From Candidatus Aminicenantes bacterium (GTDB taxonomy: Bacteria > Acidobacteriota > Aminicenantia > Aminicenantales > UBA4085), in assembly GCA_026393865.1 (NCBI GenBank), contig JAPKZI010000234.1, forward strand, positions 288 to 64,287: a stretch of DNA of 64,000 bases, read 5' to 3'. Shown here piece by piece: positions 16,123-26,496 of the stretch (the stretch's first letter is position 1; each line of letters starts with the position of its first letter). Under the pieces are notes generated by a model. It was not told where the DNA came from and did not search any database. It saw nothing but the letters and a program-made list of their open reading frames with translations. Position numbers and translations under genes: made by a program.

Positions 16123-17700
16123 CTATCCTTTAAGGATCTTGGCGACTTCGTCCTTGTCCACGTCCAGCACGTACGAAATGCCGCTGATCTCGGCCGCGGG
16201 CTTGGTCAGGGCTGCGATGTCGTCCCGGGTGATGTAGCTCAGGGCGAACTTGCGGTTTCCGGCCATGAGCTGGCGAAGACCCTGGCTCAAGCGGGTGAAG
16301 TAGCTGTACACTCCGATCGCGCCCGGAGGGAGCTCGGCGAACTTCTTGCCGTATTTCCTCTTGAGCTCGGGGGCCGTGACGAAGATCTCCTCGACGGAGC
16401 TGCCGAAACGCTCGACGTAGACCGGGATCTGACCTTCGTTGATGCGCTTGCCGATCGTTTTGCCGACCATGGCCGCGGCCAGGGGGCTGCGGGCCATGTC
16501 CACGGCTTTGACGTAGGGAGCGCCGAGGGCCAGGGCCTTGAAGATCTGGTCCTCGAAGGTGATCCCGCCGCCGTAGACGATGTCGGGCAGGTATTCGCCC
16601 TGCTTGGCCAATTGGTGGGCGAATTTATACGTCAGCGACCAGATCTCGACGCCCGGGACTCCCCATTCGTTCATCATCCGCCAGGGGCTCATGCCCGTCC
16701 CGCCGCCGGCTCCGTCTACGGTCAGCATGTCGAGCTTGGCCTTGGAGGAGAACTTGACCGCCCGGGCCAGGTCGGCCGGCCGGTAGGCGCCGGTCTTGAG
16801 GAAGACGTGCTTGGCTCCCGCCTTGCGGAGCTGTTCGACGCGCTTCATGAAGCTCTCTTCCTCGACCATGCCGAGGCGGGAGTGGCGCTCGAATTCCTTG
16901 AAGCTGCCTTTCTCGAAAGCGGCGATGACGTTCGGGTCCTCGGGGTCGGGGAGGACGATGTATCCGCGCTTCCGGAGCTCCTGGGCTTTCTTGAGGCTCT
17001 TGATCTTGACCTCGCCGCCGATGTCCTTGGCCCCTTGGCCCCACTTGAGCTCGACGGTGTCCACACCCAGTTTGCTCAAGGCATATTCCTGAGTGCCCAA
17101 GCGGGCGTCCTCGACGTTGGCCTGGACGACGACCGTACCGTAGCCGTCATACCATTTTTTGAACAGTCCGACCCTCATCTCCATGTCCGGGCTGCGGAGA
17201 ACCCGGCCGTTCTTGATTTCGGATTCGTCGTCCATGCCGCAGACGTTTTCTCCGACCGTCAGGATCGAGCCCGAGATGGCCGCCCCGATGGCCAGCCCTT
17301 CCCAGTTCTGCTTGGCCACGTTGGTCGAACCCATGCCGCCCATGACGAAGGGAACCTTGAGCTTGATCGATTTGTCCCGGCCGATCGTTTGTTCGATCGT
17401 GACTTTTTCGAAGGTCGCCTTGTCGCTGTCCGCCTCGCAGCCGTGGGCGCCGGCGGCGGTGCCCATGATGCTGAAGTGGGACAGGTCGTATGGGTATTCC
17501 TTTTCCGCCCCCGCGGTGATGATGCCGAACGGCTGGGGGTAGAGGACTTCGGCCGCCCGATAAGCGGACTTGCCGATCTCGCACATCCCGATGCAGCCGT
17601 CCACGCAAGTCACGCACATCCCGCTGATTTGACTGATCGATCCTTCGGTCCTGTTTTTGGTTAAAGTCGCCGCGCTCCGGTTCAGTCTCGTATAAGACAT
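16123..17700 (-). CDS. Glutamate synthase GltB FMN/2-oxoglutarate-domain protein (archaeal-type domain 2) with N-terminal Cys cluster
   Basis: 525 aa with an N-terminal CVTCVDGCIGMCEIG cluster. TIM-barrel FMN-domain hallmarks of GltB are present (GGTGMSPW, VYGGGITFEDQIFKALALGA). An AGGAGG RBS lies upstream. Confidence 0.8.
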   Translation of the reverse strand: MSYTRLNRSAATLTKNRTEGSISQISGMCVTCVDGCIGMCEIGKSAYRAAEVLYPQPFGIITAGAEKEYPYDLSHFSIMGTAAGAHGCEADSDKATFEKVTIEQTIGRDKSIKLKVPFVMGGMGSTNVAKQNWEGLAIGAAISGSILTVGENVCGMDDESEIKNGRVLRSPDMEMRVGLFKKWYDGYGTVVVQANVEDARLGTQEYALSKLGVDTVELKWGQGAKDIGGEVKIKSLKKAQELRKRGYIVLPDPEDPNVIAAFEKGSFKEFERHSRLGMVEEESFMKRVEQLRKAGAKHVFLKTGAYRPADLARAVKFSSKAKLDMLTVDGAGGGTGMSPWRMMNEWGVPGVEIWSLTYKFAHQLAKQGEYLPDIVYGGGITFEDQIFKALALGAPYVKAVDMARSPLAAAMVGKTIGKRINEGQIPVYVERFGSSVEEIFVTAPELKRKYGKKFAELPPGAIGVYSYFTRLSQGLRQLMAGNRKFALSYITRDDIAALTKPAAEISGISYVLDVDKDEVAKILKG

Positions 17701-17761
17701 GTTGATGACCTCCTTTGGGTTATCGTTTCAGATTTGGCCTTGGCCATTTATACGATCGTCC

Positions 17762-18445
17762 CTATTTCCGTTTTTCCTGGACGCAGGTCCCGCACCGGCC
17801 GGCGTCGTACATCCAACACTGCAGCTCGCCGTATTCCTCGAGGCAGGTCGGCTCCATGGTCAGACAGGCGTTGCAGATGTCCGTCTCCGCGGCCGGCCCC
17901 TGGCACCGGAGCTGGCAGGCCGGGCATATGTACATGCACGCGCCGCAGAGCCTGCAGACCTCCGAACGGGCGTCGAACGGCGTCGAGATCTTTCTTTTGT
18001 TGCCGCGATTCTGGAAGCCGATCGCCCGGGCGTCCATCTGCTCCTCGCAGATCCGGACGCACAGACCGCAATAGACGCATTCCTCGTCGCGCGGCTTGAA
18101 CCGCTGATGGGTCAGGCCGTATTTCGAGGCCAGATCCTGCAGCTTCTTGGATCCGGGCGCCGTAGAGAGCATGAGCTCGAGCATCATCCGCCGGGCCCGG
18201 ACGACCCGGGCCGTGTCGGTGTGGACGACGAGGCCCTCTTCGACCGGGTACGTGCAGGAGGAAACCAGCTTGGACCGCGGGCCTTCGCCGATCTCGACCA
18301 GGCATAGCCGGCACCCGCCGAATTCGGTCAGGCCGTCGTTGTGGCAGAGCGTCGGGATCTCGAGCCCATAGAAACGGGCGGCTTCGAGAAGGGTCCAACC
18401 CTCCTCCGCCTGGATCTCCAATCCGTTCATTTTCAGCTGGATCAT
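17762..18445 (-). CDS. NuoG/HydA N-terminal-type Fe-S subunit (2Fe-2S plus multiple 4Fe-4S, no catalytic domain)
   Basis: The start is trimmed to MIQLKMNGLEI (ATGA overlap with the upstream stop at 18442-18445). It has a plant-type 2Fe-2S region (CHNDGLTEFGGCRLCLVEIG) and ferredoxin motifs CVYCGLCVRICE and CRLCGACMYICPAC. It ends about 227 aa in, before any H-cluster or molybdopterin domain. Confidence 0.8.
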   Translation of the reverse strand: MIQLKMNGLEIQAEEGWTLLEAARFYGLEIPTLCHNDGLTEFGGCRLCLVEIGEGPRSKLVSSCTYPVEEGLVVHTDTARVVRARRMMLELMLSTAPGSKKLQDLASKYGLTHQRFKPRDEECVYCGLCVRICEEQMDARAIGFQNRGNKRKISTPFDARSEVCRLCGACMYICPACQLRCQGPAAETDICNACLTMEPTCLEEYGELQCWMYDAGRCGTCVQEKRK

Positions 18446-21400
18446 TTCTTGGCTCCTAGAGAGTTTTTGCCGTCCTCGGTCTCCAGATCGCAGCGGAGGC
18501 ATCGTCTCGCTTCATCGCAGGCCATCCGCTCGGTCAGCCCGAGCTCGACCTCTTTGAAGTTTTTCCGCCGCCTGGCGAGGGACAGATGAGGAGTCTTGGG
18601 ACGCCGGGCTTTGGCCGCTTCCTCAGGAGTCATCTCGGTCGGCCCGGCATAGACCGACGGCCGGGTGAGGCGATAGTCGTGCTCCATAGGCAAACCGCGG
18701 ATGTATTTCTCGATGCTGTCGGCGGCCAGCTTCCCGGCGGCCATGGCCTCGACGACCGTGTTTGGGCCCGTGACGGCGTCGCCTCCGGCGAATATGCCCG
18801 GGCGGGTGGTCGTCGCTAATTCGGGATCGGTGATGATGTTCTCACCGTGGCGCTGGACCTCGTCGCCTTCGCCGATATAGGAGGTGTCGGGCCGTTCGCT
18901 GATGGCCAGGATGAGGATGTCGAGCTTGTAAACGAAGTTCGAGCCCTCGATCGGAATAGGCTTCCTCCGGCCGCTGGCATCCTTATCTCCGAGCCGCATC
19001 CGCACGCACTCGATGGCGACCGCTCTCCCGTTCTTTGTCAGGACTTTGACCGGGGCCACGAGGAACTGGATGTCGATGCCTTCCTCGATGGCGGCGTCCA
19101 CTTCTTCAGCGAGAGCGGGCATCTCAGCCTTGGTCCGGCGGTAGAAGATCGAGACTTTTTCACACTCCTTCTGCCGGAGGGCGGCCCGGGCGGCGTCGAT
19201 GGCCGAGTTCCCCCCGCCCACGATGCATACTTTCTTACCGATCGGGACTTTTTTCCCGAGGTTCACATCGAGCAGATACTCCAGGGAATGGTGGACGCCC
19301 TGGGAGTCTTCACCCGGGATGCCCATGGCCAGCGATTGGCCGGCGCCGGTGGCGCAGAAGACGGCCTTGTAGCCGTCCTTGAACAGCTTGTCGAGGGTAA
19401 AGTCCTTGCCCAGGACCATGTTGGTCCGGATCTCGACGCCCGCGGCCTTGATCTCCTCGATATCCTTAGCCACGACTGACCGGGGAAGACGGTGGTCGGG
19501 GATGCCGACGCTCAGCATGCCTCCGGCCACGGGTAGGGCTTCGTAAATGGTCGGACAGAAACCTTTGCGGGCCAGATAATAAGCGGCCGTCAATCCAGCC
19601 GGGCCTGAGCCGATGACGGCGACCCTCTCCAATCCCTGCTTGACGGGTTCCGGCTCATAGCGCACGTTGTTCTTGGCCGCCCAATCCATGACGAAGCGCT
19701 TGATGGCCCGGATCGAAATGGGCTGGCCCGACTCGCCGGCGCGGCAGGCCTTTTCGCAGGGATGGCTACAGACCCGGGCGCAGACCGACGGCAGGGGATT
19801 GTCCTTCATAATGATGTCGAAGGCCTCTTTGTAATTCCCCTGGGCGACATGGGCGATATAGGTCGAAGCTTCCTGGCCGATGGGGCAGATATAATGGCAC
19901 GGCGAGGAGACGATCTCCTTGCAGACGAGCGCCGGGCATTTCTTGCGCTTGATGTGATATTCGTATTCCTTGCGGAAGTACTTCAGGGTCGATAGAACGG
20001 GATTGGCCGCGGTCTGGCCCAGCCCGCACATCGAGCTGTCCTTGACCGCTTGGGCCAGCTCCTCGAGGAGATCAAGATCGCTCTCTTCGCCCCTGCCGTC
20101 CGAGATCTTCTTGACGATCTCCCACATCCTCTGCGTCCCTTCACGGCAGGAGACGCACTTGCCGCAGGACTCGTCCCGGAGAAAGTTCAGAAAATACTTG
20201 GCGATGTCGACCATGCAGGTCTTGTCGTCCATGACGATCATCCCGCCCGAGCCCATGATTGCCCCGGCCGCCGTCAGGCTTTCGTAATCGATGGTGAGGT
20301 CAAGCTTGGAGCTGGGGAGACAGCCTCCGGACGGGCCTCCGATCTGAACCGCTTTGAACTCCCTCCCCTCGGGGATACCCCCCCCGATGCCGTAGACGAT
20401 GTCCCGGAGGGTGATGCCCATCGGGACCTCGACCAATCCCGTGTTGTTGATTTTTCCGACGAGGGAAAAGATCTTTGTTCCCTTGCTCGTTTCCGTTCCG
20501 AGGCCCGCGAACCAGGCCGCCCCACGCCGGATGATATTGGGCACGGTCGCCCAAGTCTCGACGTTGTTGATCACGGTCGGCATCCCCGCGTAGCCTTTTT
20601 GGGCCGGATAGGGTGGCCGTTGCCGGGGCATGGCGATCCTTCCCTCCACGGACGCGATCAGAGCGGTCTCTTCTCCGGAGACGAATGCTCCCGCTCCCTG
20701 CACGACCTCGACGTCGAAATGGAATCCAGTGTCGAGAATGTTCTTCCCGAGCAGCCCGTACTCTTTGGCTTGGGAGATGGCAATGTCCATTCTGTGCACG
20801 GCCAGCGGGTATTCATGCCGGATATAGATGAATCCTTTTTCAGCCCCGATCGCTTTCGCCCCGATCACCATCCCTTCGAGAACGGTATGAGGGTCGGCTT
20901 CAAGGACCGACCGGTCCATAAAGGCCCCCGGGTCCCCTTCGTCGCCGTTGCAAATGAGGTATTTAGGAGTCTTCTTTGCTTGGCGTCCGATGTCCCACTT
21001 CTTACCGGTCGGGAAGCCGGCGCCTCCCCGGCCCCGGAGGCCGGAGGCGCTGATCTCGGAGACGATCTCTTCGGGCGTCATCTTCGTCAACGCCTTGGCC
21101 AACGCTTCGTAACCGTCGAAAGCAATGTATTCCTCGACCTTTTCCGGGTCGATCCGGCCGCGGTTGCGAAGCACGATCAGGCGCTGGTGTTTGAAGAACT
21201 CGATGTCCTTCATTTTTGGGACCGGCTCTTTCTCGGCGGGCGGGACGTACATCAATTTTTTGACCGGCCGGCCCTTCAGCAGGTGTTCTTCGACGAGGTG
21301 CGGGACGTCTTCGACTGTGAGCCGCTGGTAGAAAATGCCGTCCGGCTGGACGAGGAGGATCGGCCCTCGCTCGCAGAATCCATTGCATCCTGTGGCGATC

Positions 21401-21528
21401 ACGAGGACCTCGTTCTGGAGTTTCCTCTTCTGAATCTCCTGTTCGAGGGCCTCTTTGATCTTAAAGGAGTTGCAGGAGACGCATCCCGTCCCGGCGCAAA
21501 CCAATAAATGAGCGCGATATTTTTTCAA
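18442..21528 (-). CDS. Fusion protein: Trx-like [2Fe-2S] + NuoF (NADH/FMN) core + GltD/NfnB-like NAD(P)H-FAD oxidoreductase
   Basis: 1028 aa. The N-terminus has CAGTGC..CNGFCERGP. The NuoF region has GLRGRGGAGFPTGKKW, CNGDEGDPGAF and ESCGKCVSCREG. The GltD-type helical Fe-S domain (CARVCSHPCEKAC) follows, with two dinucleotide folds VAVIGSGPAGLTAA and VCIVGGGNSAIDAA. Confidence 0.85.
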   Translation of the reverse strand: MKKYRAHLLVCAGTGCVSCNSFKIKEALEQEIQKRKLQNEVLVIATGCNGFCERGPILLVQPDGIFYQRLTVEDVPHLVEEHLLKGRPVKKLMYVPPAEKEPVPKMKDIEFFKHQRLIVLRNRGRIDPEKVEEYIAFDGYEALAKALTKMTPEEIVSEISASGLRGRGGAGFPTGKKWDIGRQAKKTPKYLICNGDEGDPGAFMDRSVLEADPHTVLEGMVIGAKAIGAEKGFIYIRHEYPLAVHRMDIAISQAKEYGLLGKNILDTGFHFDVEVVQGAGAFVSGEETALIASVEGRIAMPRQRPPYPAQKGYAGMPTVINNVETWATVPNIIRRGAAWFAGLGTETSKGTKIFSLVGKINNTGLVEVPMGITLRDIVYGIGGGIPEGREFKAVQIGGPSGGCLPSSKLDLTIDYESLTAAGAIMGSGGMIVMDDKTCMVDIAKYFLNFLRDESCGKCVSCREGTQRMWEIVKKISDGRGEESDLDLLEELAQAVKDSSMCGLGQTAANPVLSTLKYFRKEYEYHIKRKKCPALVCKEIVSSPCHYICPIGQEASTYIAHVAQGNYKEAFDIIMKDNPLPSVCARVCSHPCEKACRAGESGQPISIRAIKRFVMDWAAKNNVRYEPEPVKQGLERVAVIGSGPAGLTAAYYLARKGFCPTIYEALPVAGGMLSVGIPDHRLPRSVVAKDIEEIKAAGVEIRTNMVLGKDFTLDKLFKDGYKAVFCATGAGQSLAMGIPGEDSQGVHHSLEYLLDVNLGKKVPIGKKVCIVGGGNSAIDAARAALRQKECEKVSIFYRRTKAEMPALAEEVDAAIEEGIDIQFLVAPVKVLTKNGRAVAIECVRMRLGDKDASGRRKPIPIEGSNFVYKLDILILAISERPDTSYIGEGDEVQRHGENIITDPELATTTRPGIFAGGDAVTGPNTVVEAMAAGKLAADSIEKYIRGLPMEHDYRLTRPSVYAGPTEMTPEEAAKARRPKTPHLSLARRRKNFKEVELGLTERMACDEARRCLRCDLETEDGKNSLGAKK

Positions 21529-21537
21529 GGAATCCTC

Positions 21538-21954
21538 TCAGTAAGTGGTTTCACTTCCGATCGCTAAAGCATATTCGACGACGAGGTGGCCGCCCAGGAC
21601 ATGTTTCTTGACGATCTGACGGATTTTGGCCGGTGTCAGGTCGACGTATTTGACCGGCGGGTGGCCTTTGATCTCGACCGTCGCCATCGGCTCCCGTCTG
21701 CAGAATCCGGCGCAGCCCGAGGTCGTCACGATCACGTCCTTGACCTTGCTTTTACTCAGCTGGTCAAGAAGGGCGTTCATGATCTCGCGGGCGCCGGCCG
21801 CGATCCCGCACGTGCCCATATGGACCGTGACCCGGCCCCGGCCTTCACCATCCCGGATGGTCATAGTCGCCTTGGCTTTATCCCGGATTTTGGCTAAATC
21901 CTGGATCGTGAGTTTTTTCTGTTTCACTTCGGGCGTTCGCTTTTTTACCGTCAT
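21538..21954 (-). CDS. Thioredoxin-like [2Fe-2S] ferredoxin (HydD-like)
   Basis: 138 aa with Cys contexts HMGTCGIAAG and TSGCAGFCRREP, as in Trx-like 2Fe-2S ferredoxins of HydABC-type operons. Confidence 0.75.
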   Translation of the reverse strand: MTVKKRTPEVKQKKLTIQDLAKIRDKAKATMTIRDGEGRGRVTVHMGTCGIAAGAREIMNALLDQLSKSKVKDVIVTTSGCAGFCRREPMATVEIKGHPPVKYVDLTPAKIRQIVKKHVLGGHLVVEYALAIGSETTY

Positions 21955-21985
21955 ATTCTTTGGAACCTCCTACTGTAGCTCCGAA

Positions 21986-22016
21986 GTTGCCTGGCGATGA
22001 TTTCGCCTCAGGCAAC
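21986..22016. other. Intercistronic GC-rich hairpin (13-bp stem with one bulge)
   Basis: gttgcctggcga (21986-21997) pairs with tcgcc-t-caggcaac (22003-22016), with loop tgatt. It lies between the nuoE-like stop (22022) and the ferredoxin start (21954). Confidence 0.45.
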
Positions 22017-22021
22017 GCGGC

Positions 22022-22525
22022 CTAGGCGTGTTTCGCAACCCGCTTCGTAGCCTTCGGTTTATTTCCGCGTTGATACTTTTTCAGGATCGTGTTGACTCTC
22101 TGGATCGTCGTGTGTCCGTAGTAGTCCCGGTCCACGACGACGACGGGCCCGATGGCGCAGCAGCCCAAACAGGCCACGGTTTCCAGGGTGAACTGTTTGT
22201 CGGGTGTGGTTTCGCCGGGTTCGACGGCCAGCCTCTTCTCGAATTCCGAGAGTATCTTGGGTCCTCCGCGGACATGACAGGCGGTTCCCAGGCAGACCGT
22301 CACCAGATGCCGCCCCCGCGGCTTGAGGCTGAAGGCCCGGTAGAACGTGGCCAAGCCGACGATATCGATCAGCGGCACGGCCAGCTCGGACGCCACAGTA
22401 CGAAGAGCCTCCGGAGGAAGATACGCGTTCTCGGACTGGATATCCAAAAGGATGGCGATCAGATTTTTCTTCAAGCCTTCGTGCTTATGGATGATCGAAC
22501 GGATTTGTTCTTGCATGGCATTCAA
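22022..22525 (-). CDS. NuoE/HydC-like [2Fe-2S] subunit
   Basis: 167 aa with the NuoE pattern (VTVCLGTACHVRG...ACLGCCAIGP). The track start is TTG at 22525 with AGGAGG 7 nt upstream. The alternative is ATG at 22516. Confidence 0.85.
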   Translation of the reverse strand: MNAMQEQIRSIIHKHEGLKKNLIAILLDIQSENAYLPPEALRTVASELAVPLIDIVGLATFYRAFSLKPRGRHLVTVCLGTACHVRGGPKILSEFEKRLAVEPGETTPDKQFTLETVACLGCCAIGPVVVVDRDYYGHTTIQRVNTILKKYQRGNKPKATKRVAKHA

Positions 22526-22722
22526 GATCGTTCCTCCTGGCTGCGGGCTTTAGGACGATGCCGAAAAGCGTACCCGGGACGCCCCTCGTCGAGGACAGGC
22601 AGGGATGCCTTCCGCTTTGGGAGATAAAGGTCGAAGTTCCGTTGATAGAAAGGATCGCCACCGACGCGGATTCTTTATGACGATCGAAAAGCTGCTTGTC
22701 TTGCGCATTAAATAAGAGCAGA

Positions 22723-22752
22723 TTTATAGCAGATAAAATTTGCCTTTGTCAA
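22723..22752 (-). promoter_or_regulatory. Putative sigma70 promoter (TTGACA-18-TATAAA) for the nuoE-like operon
   Basis: The plus strand reads tttata (22723-22728) and tgtcaa (22747-22752) with an 18-nt spacer. This implies a leader of about 190 nt before the start at 22525. Confidence 0.4.
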
Positions 22753-22811: not shown

Positions 22812-23357
22812 TTAGGTCCGACCTATTTTTTTGAGGCCGGTTTGAAGATTTTTTTTAGCCGCGCGGAAGATCGACGGGCACAGACAGGGCGTGCTTCGGG
22901 GGTCGCCGAGAAACTCGCGGCTGGCGAACCGGAAGACGAGGCCGTTTACTCGGTGGCCGTAGCGAAAATCGATCTCGGGATGGCCGAAAACAAGCGCCGT
23001 GATCGTTGCAACCATCGCCGTCAGGGGGGGGCGATCGATATGACGGTAGCGGAAGCGGGCGGCGACCTTGGTCCCTTGGTTGGGGACCGTCGTCAGGACC
23101 GCGCCGCCGCCACAGTGTTCCGCCGCTTGGGCGAGAAGCGGGAGGCCGAGGCCGGTCCGTTTTCCTTTGGTCGTGAAGAACGGGTCGAGGGCCCGCCGCG
23201 CGTCTTTTTTCGACATGCCCCGCCCGTTGTCCGAAATGCGGACCGTCAGGAGGTTCCGCCGCTCATTCTCATTGATCGTCACGGTGATCCGCGTCGCGTC
23301 CGCCGCGACCGCGTTTTCGACGATGTCGAGGATGTGGAGCGACAAATCCTCCATCAT
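22812..23357 (-). CDS. Stand-alone HATPase_c (GHKL ATPase) domain protein
   Basis: The start is trimmed to MMEDLSLHILDIVENA (ATGA overlap with the PHP gene stop). It has an N-box HILDIVENA, G1 DNGRGM and G2 GLGLPL, with no His-phosphotransfer or sensor domain. Confidence 0.75.
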   Translation of the reverse strand: MMEDLSLHILDIVENAVAADATRITVTINENERRNLLTVRISDNGRGMSKKDARRALDPFFTTKGKRTGLGLPLLAQAAEHCGGGAVLTTVPNQGTKVAARFRYRHIDRPPLTAMVATITALVFGHPEIDFRYGHRVNGLVFRFASREFLGDPRSTPCLCPSIFRAAKKNLQTGLKKIGRT

Positions 23358-24100
23358 GAGCTGCAGACCTTTCTTCCATTTTTGGACCGGAGCGCCATCC
23401 GAATCTCTTCGAACGAGGGGGCCGCAAGGAGGAAGTCCGTGGACGTCCGGCCGATGTCCTCGGGCCGATGGGCGTCGGAGAAACGGACGAGAGGGATCGA
23501 GGCGTTCATCGGGATGGCCGTCCGGGCTTCGGCGATGGTCATGAGAGGAGAGACCTCGAGGGCGTCGAGTTCGATGTCGGAGGGGATGAAGCCCAGTTGA
23601 GAGATGATGCTGAACGCGCCTTTGTCGATATGCGACGCGATCGCCAGGCCGCCGAAGCGGTGGATCAGGGCGACGATCTCGTGGACGTCCAGCCGCGTCG
23701 CGGCCAGGAGACACCGCGGGCTGAAGCCCATCACCTCGTCGTCCTTGTTGACGACCACCTGGTCTTGGACGAAGGCTTTTTTCGTGGGGACCTCGGGAAG
23801 GTTCCGAAAAACCTCGTCCTGGACGGGTCGAATGTCGTCCATGCTTTTGAAGACGCCGAGAATATGGACCTCCTCCTCGGAGGTCAGTTCCATGCCCGGA
23901 AGGACCGTCATTCCCGTCCCTTCCGCGGCCTGGAGCGCGGCCGCGGCGTTTTCCGCGGTGTTGTGGTCGCTGATGGCGATGATATCCAGCCCCGCTTCGA
24001 GCGCCCGGCGGACGATTCGGCGAGGATAATTCGTCAATTCACCGCAGGGGGAGAGGCAGGAGTGGATGTGGAGGTCGGCTCGAAAGCGCCTGAGCCCCAT
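23354..24100 (-). CDS. PHP-domain phosphoesterase
   Basis: 248 aa with N-terminal ADLHIHSCLSPCG and ISDHN metal-binding motifs typical of PHP domains. Confidence 0.8.
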   Translation of the reverse strand: MGLRRFRADLHIHSCLSPCGELTNYPRRIVRRALEAGLDIIAISDHNTAENAAAALQAAEGTGMTVLPGMELTSEEEVHILGVFKSMDDIRPVQDEVFRNLPEVPTKKAFVQDQVVVNKDDEVMGFSPRCLLAATRLDVHEIVALIHRFGGLAIASHIDKGAFSIISQLGFIPSDIELDALEVSPLMTIAEARTAIPMNASIPLVRFSDAHRPEDIGRTSTDFLLAAPSFEEIRMALRSKNGRKVCSS

Positions 24101-24441
24101 CAGGTTCCTTGAATCCCTAATCCATAGACCCTGCCGACGAATTCAAAGGCGGTCAAAGGCGTTCCGATAATGGACACCCGTTCTTTACGGGCCAGCTCGA
24201 CGGTTTCCGCGGCGGGTTCGCGGCCGTTGACAAGGACGATCGCCGCCAGTTCCTTGAAGGCGGCGACGGCGATGATGTTCGGATGGATCTGGAGGGTGAC
24301 CCAGAGTTGGTCTTTTTGGCCGTGGGCGAGGACATCGCTCAAAAGATCGCTGGCGTAGCCGCCGCTGATAGGGCGGGTCAGCTCATTCCGACCTGTATAG
24401 ACCTTGAGGTCCAGCTGTTCGATGAGTTTGGCCAGGGTCAT
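24100..24441 (-). CDS. DRTGG-domain protein
   Basis: The start is trimmed to MTLAKLIEQLDL (ATGA overlap with the upstream stop). It is 113 aa and paralogous in pattern to the 26149-26496 product (ASDLLSDVLA.. / IVLVNGREP.. / IIGT). Confidence 0.65.
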   Translation of the reverse strand: MTLAKLIEQLDLKVYTGRNELTRPISGGYASDLLSDVLAHGQKDQLWVTLQIHPNIIAVAAFKELAAIVLVNGREPAAETVELARKERVSIIGTPLTAFEFVGRVYGLGIQGT

Positions 24442-25712
24442 GTCTCCTCCTTTTTCGCAAACGGGCAGTCGTCGAGGGCCGCTAGGCCGCGAACGATGTC
24501 GTCGGCCAAGGTCCGGCAATCCGGAGCGCCGCAGGCTCCGCAATCCTTGCGCGGCAGCCGTTGGAAGATCTCGTTCCGGCGATTGGCTTTGGAGATCGCC
24601 TGGGCGGGGTCGGCGTCTAAAGGAGGCGACTCCAGGGGTGCGATGGGATGATGGAAGGACAGAAAATCCTTGTGATAGAGCAGGTTCATGTCGGAGCTGT
24701 CGACCACGGTCCGTTCTCCCATTATACTGACGAGACGCAGGATCCGGCTTTTCGCCAGGTAGCGGTTTTCGACCGTCAGGGGGCCCCCGATGCAGCCGTC
24801 CGGACAGACCGTGCATTCCAAGAGGTCCACGTCCTTGAGGAGGCCGAGTTCCACCTGGTTCAAAACGCGGATGGTGTCCCGAACTCCCGAGACGGCCACC
24901 GTTCGATGGTTTTTGAGCCCGCGCGTTTCGCCTCCCGAAAGGGCTGTGCCGACGCCGGTGCCGCTGAAGATAGTCTCCGGGAAGAGATGGGCCATGATCG
25001 TGTCTTCCTTGCTCTGCCGGAGGGTTTGGTAGATCGTTTTAAAAATATCCCTGATCGAAATCGCGCCGTCCAGATAGGATTTTTCCATCGAAGCGGGGTG
25101 GTTGATCGAGACCATTTTCGCCGGACAGGGGGTGATGTGGAAAATCCCGATGTTCGACGCGGGAACCTTGGTCATCCGGGGGAGGTTGGCCCGCAGGATC
25201 TTGGCCGCGTTCTCGCGCGGCGGTTCGATGGGGACGATATGTTCGCACAGCGAGGGAAAACGGCGTTGGATAAGACGGATCACCACGGGGCAAGTCGAGG
25301 AGATGAACGGCCGGGGCTTGGGGTGAGTGGCGAGATACATCTCGAGGGCGGTGTTGTTGAGCTCGCAGATCGTGCTGAGCTCATAGACGTAGTCAAACCC
25401 GACGCGGCGCAGGGCGAAGAGGATCTCGTTCGGCAGGGTTGTGTTGTCGAACTGGCCGTAGAGCACCGTTGCCGGAATAACGACCTTGTACGGGAACGCT
25501 TTGAGGTCCGAGAACGACGTCGTCATCGACTCGACGGCGTCCTGGGGACAAAACCGGAGACATTCCCCGCAGTCGATGCAGAGCTCGTCGATGATTAGCG
25601 CTTTCCCGTTTTTAATCCGGATCGCTTTGGTCGGACAGGCGATCATGCAATGGACACAACCGATGCATTTTTCGGGGTTGATCTGCACAGAATGACGGGT
25701 GTTGTCGGTCAT
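24438..25712 (-). CDS. [FeFe]-hydrogenase-like (putative sensory) Fe-S protein
   Basis: 424 aa with two N-terminal CxxCxxCxxxCP ferredoxin motifs. H-cluster motif equivalents are SSTCPVV (cf. TSCCP), TPCPAKMVS (cf. MPCxxKxxE) and ECTVCPDGCIGGP (cf. ExMxCxxGCxxG). There is a C-terminal CGACGAPDC..C cluster. Confidence 0.8.
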   Translation of the reverse strand: MTDNTRHSVQINPEKCIGCVHCMIACPTKAIRIKNGKALIIDELCIDCGECLRFCPQDAVESMTTSFSDLKAFPYKVVIPATVLYGQFDNTTLPNEILFALRRVGFDYVYELSTICELNNTALEMYLATHPKPRPFISSTCPVVIRLIQRRFPSLCEHIVPIEPPRENAAKILRANLPRMTKVPASNIGIFHITPCPAKMVSINHPASMEKSYLDGAISIRDIFKTIYQTLRQSKEDTIMAHLFPETIFSGTGVGTALSGGETRGLKNHRTVAVSGVRDTIRVLNQVELGLLKDVDLLECTVCPDGCIGGPLTVENRYLAKSRILRLVSIMGERTVVDSSDMNLLYHKDFLSFHHPIAPLESPPLDADPAQAISKANRRNEIFQRLPRKDCGACGAPDCRTLADDIVRGLAALDDCPFAKKEET

Positions 25713-26152
25713 GGCCGTTGTCCGTTGGTCAGGAACGTGAGCTCAAGCCGCGTTCCTCGGCCGACCTCCGAGGTGATCAGGAACGCGTCCGTGTTTTTTT
25801 TGATATTGGCGAGTCCCATGCCGGCGCCGAACCCGAGCTCGCGCATTTCGAGAGTGGCCGTGGAATAGCCTTCCGTCATGGCCAACTCGATGTCTTCGAT
25901 TCCGGGACCGGAGTCTTCGACGACGACGTGGACCCGGCCCGGCGTGACCGACAGAACCAGCCGGCCCTCCCAGGCGTACATGATGATGTTCAGCTCGGCC
26001 TCGTAGCTCGCGATCGCGGCGCGGAGCACGACCGGAGTGCTCAAGCCGAGCTCTTTCAGGAGGTTTTTGATCTCCCAGGAGACTTCGCCCGCCCGGGAAA
26101 AATCGCCGCCTTTGACCGGGAACTCTTGCCGAAAAACGGTGTCCTTCGTCAT
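25709..26152 (-). CDS. RsbW/SpoIIAB-like anti-sigma-type serine kinase (HATPase_c)
   Basis: 147 aa with EAELNIIMYA, DSGPGIEDIE and GFGAGMGLANI motifs of small GHKL Ser kinases. There is an ATGA overlap on both sides. Confidence 0.75.
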   Translation of the reverse strand: MTKDTVFRQEFPVKGGDFSRAGEVSWEIKNLLKELGLSTPVVLRAAIASYEAELNIIMYAWEGRLVLSVTPGRVHVVVEDSGPGIEDIELAMTEGYSTATLEMRELGFGAGMGLANIKKNTDAFLITSEVGRGTRLELTFLTNGQRP

Positions 26153-26496
26153 CGTCTTCCTTTAAGAAAGGACCCGGAGACCCTGGAGCACGCTTCAAAC
26201 ATGGAACATCCCGTGGCGATGATCGGGACGTTGTGTTCCCGGGCCTCGTCGATGACCTTCCGCTCCGGCCTCTTTCCTTGGACGATGACGATGGCCGCGA
26301 CTTCGACCAGGCGCGCGGTGCGGACGACATGCGTGTTCACCAACCCCGTCATGAGGATGGAGCCCGGTTGTATGAACGCCAGCACGTCGCTCATCAAATC
26401 CGAGGCGAAAAATTTCGCACATTCGGTCTCGAGATTCATCTCGGGCGTCAGGAGCTCTCCGTCCAATGCCGTCATCATCCCTTTCAAGGTCAACAT
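26149..26496 (-). CDS. DRTGG-domain protein
   Basis: 115 aa (ASDLMSDVLAF...IVIVQGKRP...IIATG). It is the first gene of the overlapped six-gene set. Confidence 0.65.
   Translation of the reverse strand: MLTLKGMMTALDGELLTPEMNLETECAKFFASDLMSDVLAFIQPGSILMTGLVNTHVVRTARLVEVAAIVIVQGKRPERKVIDEAREHNVPIIATGCSMFEACSRVSGSFLKGRR

What the first reader, a model, noticed from the sequence alone, without database searches (positions are those of the whole stretch)
16123..22525. HydABC-style NuoE/Fdx/NuoF/NuoG(N) electron-bifurcation chassis coupled to glutamate-synthase modules instead of a hydrogenase
Five co-directional, tightly packed minus-strand genes make up this operon.
- A NuoE-like [2Fe-2S] subunit.
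- A Trx-like [2Fe-2S] ferredoxin.
- A 1028-aa protein with a NuoF core (GLRGRGGAGFPTGKKW, ESCGKCVSCREG) fused in-frame to a complete GltD/NfnB-like module (CARVCSHPCEKAC, VAVIGSGPAGLTAA, IVGGGNSAIDAA).
- A NuoG/HydA N-terminal Fe-S module that stops after about 227 aa with no catalytic domain.
- A 525-aa GltB FMN/2-oxoglutarate-domain protein with its own N-terminal Cys cluster (CVTCVDGCIGMC).

The E-Fdx-F-G(N) set is the hallmark of NADH/ferredoxin electron-bifurcating HydABC-type enzymes. Here the H-cluster domain is absent and GOGAT parts occupy its place. No glutamine amidotransferase (GltB domain 1) or GXGXG domain is encoded in the window.

Inference: this is a multi-flavin (FMN-NADH, FAD-NAD(P)H, FMN-substrate) ferredoxin-linked glutamate-synthase-like complex, possibly bifurcating or confurcating. 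Its substrate set (Gln vs NH4+) is unclear. glnA lies 4 kb upstream on the same strand.
Basis: partly seen in the sequence, partly recalled or inferred. Interest (0 to 1): 0.8.

Follow-up and report, generated by a model that had tools for sequence, protein, structure and literature searches.

The report
Hydrogenase-type chassis driving glutamate-synthase-like enzyme
This five-gene operon from an uncultured Aminicenantes bacterium joins the NADH/ferredoxin "electron-splitting" core known from bifurcating hydrogenases to a flavin subunit distantly related to glutamate synthase; the same module occurs in at least 590 anaerobe genomes, and I found no description of it in the literature I could search.

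Summary
Five co-directional minus-strand genes (22525-16123) encode:
- a NuoE/BfuC-like subunit;
- a small thioredoxin-like ferredoxin homologue;
- a 1028-aa BfuB(NuoF)::GltD fusion;
- a 227-aa short BfuA (HydA/NuoG N-terminus only);
- a 525-aa PF01645 flavoprotein.

- Residues 3-540 of the fusion score 786 bits against a structurally solved bifurcating HydB and carry the published Bfu signature motifs. However, the ferredoxin-binding C-terminal domain is replaced by GltD.
- The short BfuA is closest to WorA, the "plug" subunit of the tungsten aldehyde oxidoreductase Bfu complex.
- The 525-aa protein is not a canonical GltB domain. It belongs to a separate, strongly conserved clade that lacks the internal Fe-S motif and has an N-terminal four-Cys motif instead.
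- In 78 of the 80 best-matching genome loci, spanning many phyla including archaea, this gene follows the short BfuA, with NuoE and BfuB upstream.
- GltD is fused in only 40 of the 69 loci where a BfuB was found, so it is an accessory.
- No amidotransferase or GXGXG gene occurs in the window or in any of the 80 loci.
- Neighbours (glutamate dehydrogenase, glutamine synthetase) and stand-alone paralogues inside nitrogen-assimilation clusters point to glutamate/2-oxoglutarate chemistry.

Substrate, direction and bifurcation itself are untested.

The parts
22022..22525 (-). BfuC/HydC (NuoE-like) subunit, 167 aa, with the four Cys of the C1 [2Fe-2S] cluster. TTG start 7 nt after an AGGAGG.
   Evidence: PF01257 E 7e-49; NuoE NF005722 147 bits against a cut-off of 141; present upstream of BfuB in 65 of the 80 related loci.
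21538..21954 (-). Small thioredoxin-like ferredoxin homologue (HydD-like), 138 aa. It has only three Cys (C49, C81, C85) plus a conserved His46.
   Evidence: Weak PF01257 (24.6 bits) and fdxn_Clost E 1e-6. Orthologues occur only in the related lineage L006, L012, L015, L017 and L076, with HMGTCG and SGCAGxC conserved.
19951..21528 (-). BfuB (HydB/NuoF-type) part of the 1028-aa fusion, residues 1-526, followed by the hinge to about residue 540. Contains the N-terminal Trx-like [2Fe-2S] (B5), the FMN/NADH site, SLBB, the B1 [4Fe-4S] and the B2 His/Cys hinge (HIKRKKCPALVC).
   Evidence: 786 bits to 7t2r_B and 741 bits to 7q4v_B over residues 3-542; Pfam; AFM, GGPSG and AFVSGEE motifs compared with PMC12018979.
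18442..19905 (-). GltD/NfnB-like module fused in frame (residues 542-1028): two [4Fe-4S] (Fer4_20), FAD and NAD(P)H Rossmann folds. It takes the position of the ferredoxin-type B3/B4 domain of canonical BfuB.
   Evidence: Fer4_20 E 3e-25 and Pyr_redox_2 E 3e-32. Best solved matches are the GltD-like parts of 9bov_A, NfnA (9n5u_A) and 8oh5_C. E. coli GltD tblastn E 2e-67. Fused in 40 and absent in 29 of the related clusters.
17762..18445 (-). Short BfuA (called BfuA' here), 227 aa. It has the A1 [2Fe-2S] and two [4Fe-4S] (A2 and A4), no His-ligated A3 motif and no catalytic domain. A family-specific C-terminal stretch carries eight conserved Cys. Its start overlaps the BfuB::GltD stop codon (ATGA).
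   Evidence: Fer2_4 E 3e-17 and Fer4_7. Best solved match is WorA 9mqx_A, E 2.4e-38 over residues 4-206. All 20 Cys are conserved in 70-78 of 78 orthologues.
16123..17700 (-). GltB-FMN-like flavoprotein, 525 aa, the presumed catalytic subunit. It is a TIM barrel with QGAK and DGAGGGTGMSP motifs and an N-terminal C29-x2-C32-x3-C36-x3-C40 motif. It has no internal GltB-type Fe-S motif.
   Evidence: PF01645 67.5 bits. hhalign to a canonical split GltB2: probability 93.7%, E 2e-7, 338 columns. AF2 model pLDDT 72, pTM 0.80. It is the most conserved gene of the module, median 68% identity across phyla.
22723..22752 (-). Promoter-like TTGACA-N18-TATAAA in the 287-nt gap upstream of the NuoE-like gene. 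It would give a leader of roughly 200 nt.
   Evidence: Read from the sequence. It was not picked up by the consensus scan. No Rfam family matches the leader. This is weak evidence.
22812..26496 (-). Upstream co-directional regulator-like cluster, in order: DRTGG protein, HATPase_c, [FeFe]-hydrogenase H-domain homologue with altered motifs (SSTCP / TPCPAK / CPDGCIGGP) and a C-terminal PF04060 Fe-S domain, a second DRTGG-like ORF, PHP, HATPase_c. Possibly a redox- or H2-sensing module controlling the operon.
   Evidence: Pfam; PDB matches to [FeFe]-hydrogenases. The same gene set accompanies the module in L006, L012, L017 and L076, upstream in some and downstream in others. A promoter-like site lies at 26566-26538.
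26639..28045 (-). Glutamine synthetase (glnA), upstream on the same strand. This is context and not part of the complex.
   Evidence: Gln-synt_C E 2e-112. glnA is also near the module in 8 of the 80 related loci, mostly Aminicenantes plus one archaeon.

Best explanation
The operon encodes one soluble multi-subunit flavo-iron-sulfur oxidoreductase of the Bfu (HydABC-derived) family.

Proposed arrangement:
- A NuoE-like BfuC and a BfuB (FMN, NADH site) form the core.
- A short, WorA-like BfuA acts as an iron-sulfur 'plug'. It wires the core to a 525-aa FMN subunit from a distinct clade of the glutamate-synthase FMN-domain superfamily.
- The contact is probably made through BfuA's conserved eight-Cys tail and the flavoprotein's N-terminal four-Cys motif.
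- In this organism a GltD-type FAD/NAD(P)H module with two [4Fe-4S] clusters is fused to BfuB, in place of the domain that binds ferredoxin in canonical Bfu enzymes.

Most likely chemistry: two-electron reduction of 2-iminoglutarate, formed from 2-oxoglutarate and free ammonia because there is no amidotransferase, to L-glutamate at the GltB-like FMN. Electrons would come from NADH together with a low-potential donor (ferredoxin and/or NADPH via GltD). The reverse reaction is also possible.

What is shown: gene content, domain and motif content, conserved gene order, and clade structure.
What is inferred: physical complex formation, the electron path, the substrate, the direction, and whether the energy coupling is truly bifurcating or confurcating.
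For: 1. Domains and motifs are as described.
2. The BfuB part scores far higher against solved bifurcating enzymes than against non-bifurcating NuoF or FdsB: 786, 741, 660 and 659 bits against at most 381 bits. It contains the B5 Cys, the B2 His/Cys hinge, and the AFM, GGPSG and Phe signatures that PMC12018979 reports as absent from non-bifurcating homologues.
3. BfuA' is most similar to WorA (9mqx_A, E 2.4e-38). In WorABCSL, WorA lacks A3 and uses its C-terminal part to recruit the catalytic module.
In 78 of the best 80 loci the gene follows BfuA'. Of the 57 loci with enough upstream sequence, 51 show the whole NuoE-BfuB-BfuA'-flavoprotein set. The record titles name about 20 phylum-level groups, including Thermoplasmata-type archaea.
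5. The BfuB stop and BfuA' start overlap as ATGA.
6. Both putative interface Cys sets are near-invariant.
7. Link to GltB: PF01645 above the cut-off. A profile-profile alignment to a canonical split GltB2 aligns the QGAK loop (Q222, K225) and the GGTG FMN loop.
8. Link to nitrogen and glutamate metabolism:
   - Glutamate dehydrogenase lies within 10 kb in 14 of the 80 loci, from different lineages and on either side of the module.
   - glnA is nearby in 8 of the 80 loci and in the window.
   - Sigma-54 response regulators lie upstream in 25 loci.
   - Stand-alone paralogues at 52-56% identity sit in clusters with Amt, P-II, GS, NrpR-like or GAF-ANTAR regulators and a canonical GOGAT.
9. A relative fused to an F420-type FrhB module (P0225) shows that this flavoprotein family is served by interchangeable electron-input modules.
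Against: 1. There is no biochemical evidence for any member. I found no paper describing the module.
2. The flavoprotein is remote from proven GltB. GltB2-like proteins with non-GOGAT function exist, for example N-methylglutamate synthase MgsC.
3. Canonical GOGAT coexists with the stand-alone paralogues. The family's role is therefore not simply 'the GOGAT FMN domain'.
4. Thermodynamics (my own knowledge): the 2-oxoglutarate+NH4+/glutamate couple is near -0.13 V, far above the roughly -0.4 V 'mid-potential' third substrates of characterised Bfu enzymes. A NADH + ferredoxin confurcation onto it would waste energy, and NADPH alone suffices in ordinary GOGAT.
5. In the window's version the B3/B4 ferredoxin-type domain, which forms the low-potential path to ferredoxin in solved Bfu enzymes, is missing.
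6. MAG taxonomic labels are taken as deposited.
Confidence: 0.45

Rival explanations
1. The GltB-like subunit acts on a different substrate, not 2-oxoglutarate/glutamate. Candidates are another imine, 2-oxo acid or N-compound, perhaps with a much lower redox potential that would actually need NADH plus ferredoxin. The Bfu module then serves an unknown reductase.
For: - Only remote similarity to proven GltB.
- Foldseek gives alpha-hydroxy-acid oxidases, IPP isomerase type II, FabX and DHODH ahead of GltB.
- The family carries its own FERHSR insertion and an N-terminal Cys motif.
- It coexists with a complete canonical GOGAT.
- MgsC of N-methylglutamate synthase is a precedent for non-GOGAT GltB2-like enzymes.
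- Characterised Bfu third substrates lie near -0.4 V (PMC9304861).
Against: - The QGAK catalytic loop and the overall barrel align with canonical GltB2.
- Repeated, independent neighbourhood links to GDH, GS, Amt/P-II and nitrogen regulators.
- Nothing in the 80 loci suggests an alternative pathway.
Confidence: 0.25
2. It is a non-bifurcating NAD(P)H-dependent, ammonia-utilising glutamate synthase. The NuoE/NuoF/short-BfuA proteins, and GltD where present, are simple electron-input modules in the manner of Hox or Fds diaphorases. Ferredoxin plays no part.
For: - GltD plus a GltB-like FMN subunit reproduces the core electron path of NADPH-GOGAT.
- The reaction needs no low-potential donor (my own knowledge).
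- The ferredoxin-type B3/B4 domain is missing from the window's BfuB.
Against: - BfuB has every other signature of the bifurcating clade and is much closer to bifurcating than to non-bifurcating homologues.
- 29 of the 69 orthologous clusters keep the canonical B3/B4 ferredoxin domain and lack GltD.
- The N-terminal B5 domain and the B2 hinge are retained.
Confidence: 0.2
3. It works in the catabolic direction as a ferredoxin-assisted glutamate oxidase. Glutamate (about -0.13 V) and reduced ferredoxin together reduce two NAD+. This is analogous to the Ldh/Etf lactate dehydrogenase of acetogens, and would allow amino-acid fermenters such as Aminicenantes to oxidise glutamate.
For: - The mean potential of glutamate and ferredoxin matches NAD+/NADH (my own knowledge).
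- The hosts are anaerobes, many of them fermentative or syntrophic lineages such as Syntrophales, Smithella and Syntrophorhabdus.
- GDH lies adjacent in 14 loci.
- Peptidase and gamma-glutamyltranspeptidase genes lie elsewhere in the window.
Against: - In solved Bfu enzymes the BfuA path is the mid-potential branch, not a high-potential donor.
- Paralogues are embedded in assimilatory clusters (GS, Amt, P-II, NrpR).
- Ordinary GDH already performs glutamate oxidation.
Confidence: 0.15
4. The first four genes form an Nfn-Bfu/Stn-type NADH-ferredoxin:NADP+ transhydrogenase. The 525-aa flavoprotein is an independent enzyme that merely shares the operon.
For: - All Nfn-Bfu cofactor modules are present (BfuC, BfuB, BfuA N-terminus, GltD-like FAD module).
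- The GltD part is most similar to the corresponding parts of 9bov_A, NfnA and 8oh5_C.
Against: - The flavoprotein follows BfuA' in 78 of 80 loci, including the 29 clusters that lack GltD and so cannot be transhydrogenases.
- It is the most conserved gene of the set.
- BfuA' has a family-specific conserved Cys tail.
- GltD sits on BfuB, not on BfuA as in Nfn-Bfu.
Confidence: 0.07

Closest known systems
WorABCSL, the tungsten aldehyde oxidoreductase Bfu complex of Acetomicrobium mobile (PDB 9mqx; PMC12318220), a 'Type 2' Bfu enzyme
   Same: - A BfuBC core plus a short BfuA (WorA, 247 aa) that has A1, A2 and A4 but no A3 and no alpha/beta/alpha catalytic domain.
- WorA's C-terminal Cys-containing part recruits a separate catalytic module.
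- The window's BfuA' aligns to WorA over residues 4-206 at E 2.4e-38.
   Different: - The recruited module is an FMN TIM-barrel protein rather than WorSL tungstopterin subunits.
- The BfuA' tail has eight conserved Cys, against a four-Cys zinc finger in WorA.
- The window's BfuB carries GltD instead of the ferredoxin-type domain.
NfnABC / StnABC (Nfn-Bfu) transhydrogenases (PDB 9n5u, 8oh5; PMC12018979, PMC10482914)
   Same: - A BfuBC core with the FMN/B1/C1 site.
- A GltD-like FAD/NADP(H) module with two [4Fe-4S]; it is the best solved match for residues 542-1014.
   Different: - In Nfn-Bfu the GltD-like module is inserted in BfuA and BfuB keeps its B3/B4 ferredoxin domain. Here GltD is fused to the C-terminus of BfuB.
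- An additional flavoprotein subunit is present here.
- 29 of the 69 orthologous clusters with a BfuB have no GltD at all.
HydABC electron-bifurcating [FeFe]-hydrogenases and NiFe-HydABCSL (PDB 7q4v, 7p5h, 7t2r)
   Same: - The closest solved relatives of the BfuB part (741-786 bits).
- Same NuoE-like partner.
- Same optional small Trx-like ferredoxin gene, and the same kind of HATPase/PHP/DRTGG/H-domain regulator genes upstream.
   Different: - No H-cluster or NiFe subunits in the complex.
- BfuA is truncated after the ferredoxin-like clusters.
HydB with a glutamate-synthase (GltA/GltD) domain in archaeal hybrid [FeFe]/[NiFe] hydrogenase complexes (Cell 2024, PMC11216029)
   Same: A NuoF-type diaphorase subunit carrying a GltD-type domain, proposed there to be the site of the low-potential acceptor. 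This is a published precedent for the BfuB::GltD architecture.
   Different: Those complexes contain hydrogenase catalytic subunits and no GltB-like flavoprotein. I did not compare the sequences directly.
Glutamate synthase: bacterial GltBD and the split archaeal-type GltB1/GltB2/GltB3
   Same: - FMN TIM barrel of the PF01645 family with the QGAK and GGTG loops.
- A GltD module able to pass electrons from NAD(P)H through two [4Fe-4S] clusters.
- Nitrogen-metabolism neighbourhoods.
   Different: - No amidotransferase, no GXGXG domain and no internal [3Fe-4S]-type Cys motif.
- It forms a separate clade on a long branch from canonical GltB.
- It occurs alongside complete canonical GOGAT in some genomes.
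N-methylglutamate synthase MgsABC (PMC6237917)
   Same: [quoted passage not shown]
   Different: MgsC works with GltB1-like and GltB3-like partners, which are absent here. It has no Bfu module. I made no sequence comparison.

Membership tests
Bfu (BfuABC/HydABC) electron-bifurcating family, as defined in PMC9304861 and PMC12018979 | BfuB with the NuoF FMN/NADH domain, SLBB and the NuoF [4Fe-4S] (B1) domain | tested here: met
   Complex1_51K E 1e-48, SLBB, NADH_4Fe-4S E 3e-34; 786 bits to 7t2r_B.
Bfu (BfuABC/HydABC) electron-bifurcating family, as defined in PMC9304861 and PMC12018979 | BfuB C-terminal ferredoxin-type domain with two CX2CX2CX3CP motifs (B3/B4; IPR017896), the low-potential path and ferredoxin docking site | tested here: not met
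   In the window the sequence after the hinge (residue ~540) is a GltD Fer4_20 domain, and no Fer4-type hit is found. The criterion is met in 29 orthologous clusters that lack GltD.
Bfu (BfuABC/HydABC) electron-bifurcating family, as defined in PMC9304861 and PMC12018979 | [quoted passage not shown] | tested here: met
   CAGTGC...GCNGFC at residues 11-52. TCMVD plus HIKRKKCPALVC align with A. mobile and A. woodii HydB.
Bfu (BfuABC/HydABC) electron-bifurcating family, as defined in PMC9304861 and PMC12018979 | Signature residues around FMN/NADH reported as absent from non-bifurcating homologues (AFM motif, Phe in the GAGAF loop, GGPSG loop) | tested here: met
   DPGAFMDRS, GAGAFVSGEETAL and QIGGPSGGC are in the translation, compared with the text of PMC12018979.
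Bfu (BfuABC/HydABC) electron-bifurcating family, as defined in PMC9304861 and PMC12018979 | BfuC: NuoE-like subunit with a [2Fe-2S] cluster (C1) | tested here: met
   PF01257 E 7e-49. The four Cys are in CLGTAC...CLGCC.
Bfu (BfuABC/HydABC) electron-bifurcating family, as defined in PMC9304861 and PMC12018979 | BfuA with at least a [2Fe-2S] and ferredoxin-type [4Fe-4S] domains | tested here: met
   Fer2_4 and Fer4_7. The Cys of A1 and of two [4Fe-4S] clusters are conserved in 75-78 of 78 orthologues. There is no His-ligated A3 motif, so it is Type-2-like.
Bfu (BfuABC/HydABC) electron-bifurcating family, as defined in PMC9304861 and PMC12018979 | Coupled reduction or oxidation of NAD(H) and ferredoxin with a third substrate | not testable with these tools
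   Needs anaerobic enzymology.
Glutamate synthase (GOGAT) | Class II (Ntn) glutamine amidotransferase domain or subunit (GltB1) | tested here: not met
   No tblastn hit with E. coli GltB in the window or in the 80 related loci. It could still be encoded elsewhere in the genome, which I could not examine.
Glutamate synthase (GOGAT) | FMN-binding domain of the PF01645 family with the substrate/FMN loops | tested here: met
   PF01645 67.5 bits against a cut-off of 20.4. hhalign probability 93.7% to a canonical split GltB2, with QGAK and GGTG aligned. It is nevertheless remote: E 0.08 to solved GltB, and it forms a separate clade.
Glutamate synthase (GOGAT) | Fe-S cluster ligated by Cys within the FMN domain (the C-x5-C-x4-C type region after the GGTG loop) | tested here: not met
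   There is no Cys in the aligned region. Instead, an N-terminal C-x2-C-x3-C-x3-C is invariant in the family.
Glutamate synthase (GOGAT) | GXGXG beta-helix domain or subunit (GltB3) | tested here: not met
   No hit with E. coli GltB or a split-type GltB3 in the window or the 80 loci.
Glutamate synthase (GOGAT) | GltD beta subunit (FAD, NAD(P)H, two [4Fe-4S]) | tested here: met
   Residues 542-1014. It is fused to BfuB and is dispensable in 29 orthologous clusters.
Glutamate synthase (GOGAT) | Glutamine- or ammonia-dependent reductive amination of 2-oxoglutarate | not testable with these tools
   Only neighbourhood evidence is available.
Nfn-Bfu / Stn transhydrogenase | GltD-like FAD/NADP(H) module carried by BfuA, which also keeps its C-terminal alpha/beta/alpha domain (A5) | tested here: not met
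   GltD is on BfuB. BfuA' ends at 227 aa.

The most novel reading that the evidence does not exclude
This is the founding example of an unrecognised functional class of Bfu enzymes, which could be called 'Glt-Bfu'. It is present in at least 590 species-level genomes of anaerobic bacteria and archaea. In it, the NADH/ferredoxin flavobicluster core is coupled through a WorA-like plug to a glutamate-synthase-type flavoprotein. That would give a direct, possibly energy-coupled (bifurcating or confurcating) link between the ferredoxin, NADH and NADPH pools and amidotransferase-independent glutamate formation or glutamate oxidation. The BfuB::GltD version would carry two potentially bifurcating modules in one polypeptide.
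Probability: 0.3. Interest if true: 0.85.

Novelty: new variant of a known kind. Interest (0 to 1): 0.68.

Why it matters
- Bfu enzymes are the most widespread class of flavin-based bifurcating enzymes. The 2022 survey left many BfuB clades without a third substrate and names neither glutamate nor GltB anywhere in its text or its held supplement.
- This module is a well-defined, very widespread candidate for one of those missing functions. It would connect the low-potential electron pools of anaerobes to the 2-oxoglutarate/glutamate node, the entry point of nitrogen into biomass.
- If the substrate is glutamate/2-oxoglutarate, it would be a route of ammonia assimilation (or glutamate catabolism) that uses neither glutamine nor the classical GOGAT architecture. 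Nitrogen and redox budgets inferred for Aminicenantes, Zixibacteria, Dehalococcoidia, syntrophs and some archaea from metagenomes would then need revision.
- If the substrate is something else, the enzyme is an unknown low-potential reductase of similar reach.
- The natural pair of variants (BfuB with the ferredoxin domain, BfuB with GltD) is also a ready-made experiment on what the B3/B4 domain does in bifurcation.

Tried and rejected
- **Canonical GltB domain.** I first treated the 525-aa protein as one and rejected that. phmmer against PDB found nothing. tblastn with E. coli GltB found nothing in the window or the 80 loci. A family profile reaches only E 0.08 to GltB.
- **Fold search.** I hoped it would settle the family. 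The AF2 model (pLDDT 72) matched only generic FMN TIM barrels at TM 0.3-0.56, which is uninformative.
- **GltB1/GltB3 partners near the gene.** None were found in any of the 80 loci. They do occur near a 52% paralogue, but together with a separate canonical GltB2, so the paralogue is not the GOGAT FMN subunit.
- **Stn/Nfn-Bfu rearrangement.** I rejected this as the whole story because GltD is absent from 29 of the 69 orthologous clusters with a BfuB.
- **Sigma-54 promoters and riboswitches.** TGGCAC-N5-TTGC matches were at chance level and none was upstream of the operon. There was no meaningful Rfam hit.
- **Literature.** Seven searches and one supplement search for a prior description found none. 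The library lacks most subscription journals, so absence is not proof.
- **Technical failures.** The first search for related loci attempt with the 14-sequence alignment failed for lack of conserved stretches. A second homologue search with the profile returned mostly the same close relatives. A short split-type GltB1 fragment was translated in the wrong frame, so that query was not a test.

Full report
**1. What is in the sequence**

ORF listing and translation confirm five co-directional minus-strand genes between 22525 and 16123. Pfam and NCBIfam assign them as follows.
- 22525-22022: a NuoE-type thioredoxin-like [2Fe-2S] protein (E 7e-49).
- 21954-21538: a weak thioredoxin-like ferredoxin homologue.
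- 21528-18442: a 1028-aa protein. It has an N-terminal Trx-like 2Fe-2S domain, the NuoF FMN domain, SLBB and the NuoF 4Fe-4S domain, followed by Fer4_20 and Pyr_redox_2, i.e. a complete GltD/NfnB-type module.
- 18502-17762: a Fer2_4 plus 4Fe-4S dicluster protein.
- 17700-16123: a 525-aa PF01645 (Glu_synthase) protein.

Further details:
- The fourth gene most plausibly starts at Met20 (18445).
- Other gaps between the genes are 9 to 67 nt.
- A TTGACA-N18-TATAAA promoter-like site lies in the 287-nt gap upstream of the first gene. No Rfam family matches the leader.
- Best homologues of the 525-aa protein are 82-94% identical and come from Candidatus Aminicenantes MAGs.

**2. The surroundings**

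Downstream are unrelated housekeeping genes: an OMP/SH3 protein, an M50 peptidase, TrpRS and ScpAB.

Upstream on the same strand is a six-gene regulator-like cluster. In order it holds:
- a DRTGG protein;
- an HATPase_c protein;
- a 424-aa [FeFe]-hydrogenase H-domain homologue with altered cluster motifs and a PF04060 Fe-S domain;
- a second DRTGG-like ORF;
- a PHP protein;
- a second HATPase_c protein.

glnA follows at 28045-26639. But a sensory-type hydrogenase homologue sits 2 kb away. The same regulator set travels with the module in four related loci, in different positions relative to it.

**3. The chassis is of the bifurcating (Bfu) type, with one important deviation**

- Residues 3-540 of the fusion score 786 bits against HydB of the A. 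mobile NiFe-HydABCSL. They score 741 bits against A. woodii HydB and 630-660 bits against WorB, NfnB, the B chains of 9bov and 8oh5, and T. maritima HydB. Non-bifurcating FdsB and Nqo1 reach at most 381 bits.
- The sequence contains the four Cys of the N-terminal B5 site and the B2 hinge (TCMVD ... HIKRKKCPALVC). It also contains the AFM, GAGAF and GGPSG signatures. PMC12018979 describes these as conserved in bifurcating enzymes and absent from non-bifurcating ones.
- The deviation: immediately after the hinge, the ferredoxin-type domain with clusters B3/B4 is replaced by GltD. In solved enzymes that domain forms the low-potential path and one wall of the ferredoxin-binding site.
- The GltD part is most similar to the GltD-like inserts of 9bov_A, NfnA and 8oh5_C.
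- A NuoF-type HydB carrying a GltA/GltD domain has been reported in archaeal hybrid hydrogenases (PMC11216029), so the fusion as such has a precedent.
- The fourth protein is a short BfuA. It has A1 and two [4Fe-4S] clusters, no His-ligated A3 motif and no catalytic domain.
- Its best solved match (E 2.4e-38, residues 4-206) is WorA of WorABCSL. In that complex WorA's C-terminal zinc finger and adaptor helix plug the catalytic WorSL module into the core.
- Here the C-terminal tail has eight Cys, each conserved in 70-78 of 78 orthologues.

**4. The 525-aa protein is a distinct relative of the GltB FMN domain**

How remote it is from canonical GltB:
- It passes the Pfam threshold for PF01645, but only over part of the model.
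- phmmer finds no solved structure.
- E. coli GltB does not detect it by tblastn.
- A family profile reaches only E 0.08 against GltB structures.
- The exhaustive representative search finds only 1061 clusters at E <= 0.001. Canonical GltBs are therefore mostly out of reach of that search.

What links it to GltB:
- A profile-profile comparison with a canonical split-type GltB2 gives 93.7% probability over 338 columns.
- That alignment matches the QGAK loop (Q222, K225; the counterparts of the catalytic Gln/Lys of GltB, from my own knowledge of the Synechocystis and Azospirillum structures) and the DGxxGGTG FMN loop.

How it differs:
- The Cys-rich segment of canonical GltB2 has no counterpart.
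- Instead, C29-x2-C32-x3-C36-x3-C40 is invariant.

The AF2 model (pLDDT 72, pTM 0.80) has a confident TIM-barrel core. Foldseek returns only generic FMN barrels. A rough NJ tree puts all Bfu-linked sequences in one clade. IclR-linked and nitrogen-cluster paralogues are successive relatives, and canonical GltB is a distant outgroup.

**5. The module is conserved and widespread**

The best 80 loci are 65-86% identical at the flavoprotein.
- Their record titles name Aminicenantes, Zixibacteria, Ignavibacteria/Bacteroidetes, Planctomycetota, Dehalococcoidia, Syntrophales, Smithella, Syntrophorhabdus, Elusimicrobiota, Latescibacterota, Actinomycetota, Bacillota and Thermoplasmata-type archaea, among others.
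- In 78 of the 80 loci the gene is directly preceded by the short BfuA. Of the two exceptions, one is a contig end.
- Of the 57 loci with enough upstream DNA, 51 show NuoE, BfuB, BfuA' and the flavoprotein in that order.
- BfuB is fused to GltD in 40 clusters. It is unfused in 29, where it ends in the canonical two-CX2CX2CX3CP ferredoxin domain.
- The invariant unit is therefore BfuC-BfuB-BfuA'-flavoprotein. GltD, the small ferredoxin-like protein and the regulator cluster are lineage-specific additions.
- The flavoprotein is the most conserved member: median identity 68%, against 59% for BfuA', 57% for BfuB and 54% for NuoE.

**6. Clues to the substrate**

- No GATase or GXGXG gene lies in the window or in any of the 80 loci.
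- Recurrent neighbours of the module:

| Neighbour | Loci (of 80) | Note |
|---|---|---|
| Sensor kinase | 27 | |
| Sigma-54 response regulator | 25 | upstream of the module |
| Small Cys-rich protein | 20 | |
| Glutamate dehydrogenase | 14 | different lineages, either side of the module |
| glnA | 8 | |

- Stand-alone paralogues at 52-56% identity sit in nitrogen clusters:
  - One lies at the end of a GltB1-GltB2-GltB3-Amt-PII-GATase-NadE-GS-regulator-NrpR-like cluster.
  - One lies next to an NrpR-like gene.
  - One lies between GAF-ANTAR and GAF-sigma54 regulators, GS, canonical GltB+GltD and carbamoyl-phosphate synthase.
- A more distant relative is fused to an F420-type FrhB module.
- Together these place the family in nitrogen/glutamate metabolism, served by interchangeable electron-input modules. 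They also show it is not redundant with glutamine-dependent GOGAT.

**7. Most likely mechanism, and its weak points**

I propose a Type-2-like Bfu complex.
- NADH binds at the BfuB FMN.
- The BfuA' clusters connect B1 to the flavoprotein's N-terminal cluster and FMN.
- At that FMN, 2-iminoglutarate made from 2-oxoglutarate and free ammonia is reduced to glutamate.
- The low-potential branch goes to ferredoxin through B3/B4 in the unfused variants.
- In the window's variant it goes into the two GltD clusters and FAD. That branch may exchange with NADP(H), or, as in NfnSL, still pass electrons to ferredoxin.

Shown: parts, motifs, synteny and clades. Inferred: everything about electron flow and chemistry.

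The main difficulty is energetic (my own knowledge). The glutamate couple lies near -0.13 V, so confurcating NADH and ferredoxin onto it is wasteful. The alternatives are listed as rivals:
- NADH bifurcation, with 2-oxoglutarate as the high-potential acceptor and ferredoxin as the low-potential one.
- Ferredoxin-assisted glutamate oxidation.
- A different, lower-potential substrate.
- A plain non-bifurcating enzyme.

N-methylglutamate synthase shows that GltB2-like proteins can have non-GOGAT roles.

**8. Novelty**

- The Bfu family is known to be modular. The survey that defined it lists hydrogenase, Fdh, Nfn, F420, Wor, Bam, Codh, Por, Mbh, Nuo and Rub modules and leaves clades 1-17 unassigned.
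- Neither its text nor its held supplement mentions glutamate, GltB or GltD.
- Seven literature searches found no description of this module.
- I therefore class it as a new variant of a known kind: a Bfu complex with a new type of third-substrate subunit, plus a BfuB::GltD fusion that removes the canonical ferredoxin domain.
- The library misses most subscription journals, so prior mention elsewhere cannot be excluded.

**9. Verdict**

'GOGAT modules in place of the hydrogenase' needs correcting to 'a distinct GltB-like flavoprotein plugged in by a WorA-like BfuA, with GltD as an optional fusion that displaces the ferredoxin domain'. Interest is 0.68.

Noticed in passing
window 22812-26496 (minus strand): A regulator-like cluster lies directly upstream of the operon: DRTGG, HATPase_c, a 424-aa [FeFe]-hydrogenase H-domain homologue (motifs SSTCP / TPCPAK / CPDGCIGGP, two 4Fe-4S, C-terminal PF04060 Fe-S domain, no PAS), a second DRTGG-like ORF, PHP, HATPase_c. 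It looks like a sensory-hydrogenase-type control module. It accompanies the module in L006, L012, L017 and L076, either upstream or downstream of it.
   Followed up: partly
window 21538-21954 (minus strand): The small 'Trx-like ferredoxin' has only three Cys. A strictly conserved His (HMGTCG) sits where BfuB's N-terminal domain has its first Cys. Its cluster, if there is one, would be His/Cys3-ligated or absent. Orthologues occur only in the lineage that also carries the regulator cluster.
   Followed up: partly
L024:4693-5007, L070:12195-12557 and 18 other loci (cluster 7): A protein of roughly 100 aa with a duplicated C-x2-C-x4/5-C...C-E-E-F motif and no Pfam match is encoded immediately upstream of the NuoE-like gene in 20 of the 80 related loci. 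It is not present in the window. It may be an extra subunit or an electron carrier of the complex.
   Followed up: no
L016:11809-13152, L014, L015, L017, L032 and others (cluster 9): Glutamate dehydrogenase (ELFV_dehydrog) lies within 10 kb of the module in 14 of the 80 loci from several phyla. It is directly downstream of the flavoprotein gene in some and upstream of NuoE in others.
   Followed up: partly
P0225 (800 aa; representative search): A relative of the flavoprotein is fused to two 4Fe-4S motifs and an FrhB/FdhB (F420-binding) module. This suggests an F420-dependent version of the same enzyme.
   Followed up: partly
L057:9989-11581 and L022:4084-5709: Paralogues of the flavoprotein (59-65% identity) sit next to IclR-type regulators without any Bfu genes. 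In Dethiobacter (L022) this copy lies 2.5 kb upstream of a complete Bfu-linked copy.
   Followed up: no
window 18442-21528 compared with L006, L012, L004: The window's BfuB part is 81% identical to an unfused BfuB (L006) but only 60% identical to the BfuB part of another fused Aminicenantes protein (L004). Its GltD part is 69% identical to L004 and 54% to L012. The fusion looks mosaic, as if modules have been exchanged between two BfuB lineages.
   Followed up: no
window 10177-11895, 6961-8097, 29288-31948: Other glutamate- or peptide-related genes lie in the window but outside the operon: gamma-glutamyltranspeptidase, an AstE/AspA-family (succinylglutamate desuccinylase-like) protein, and an M1-family peptidase.
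   Followed up: no
window 22526-22722 (minus strand): If the TTGACA-N18-TATAAA site is the promoter, the operon has an untranslated leader of roughly 200 nt. It has no Rfam match, and I did not test its conservation in related loci.
   Followed up: partly
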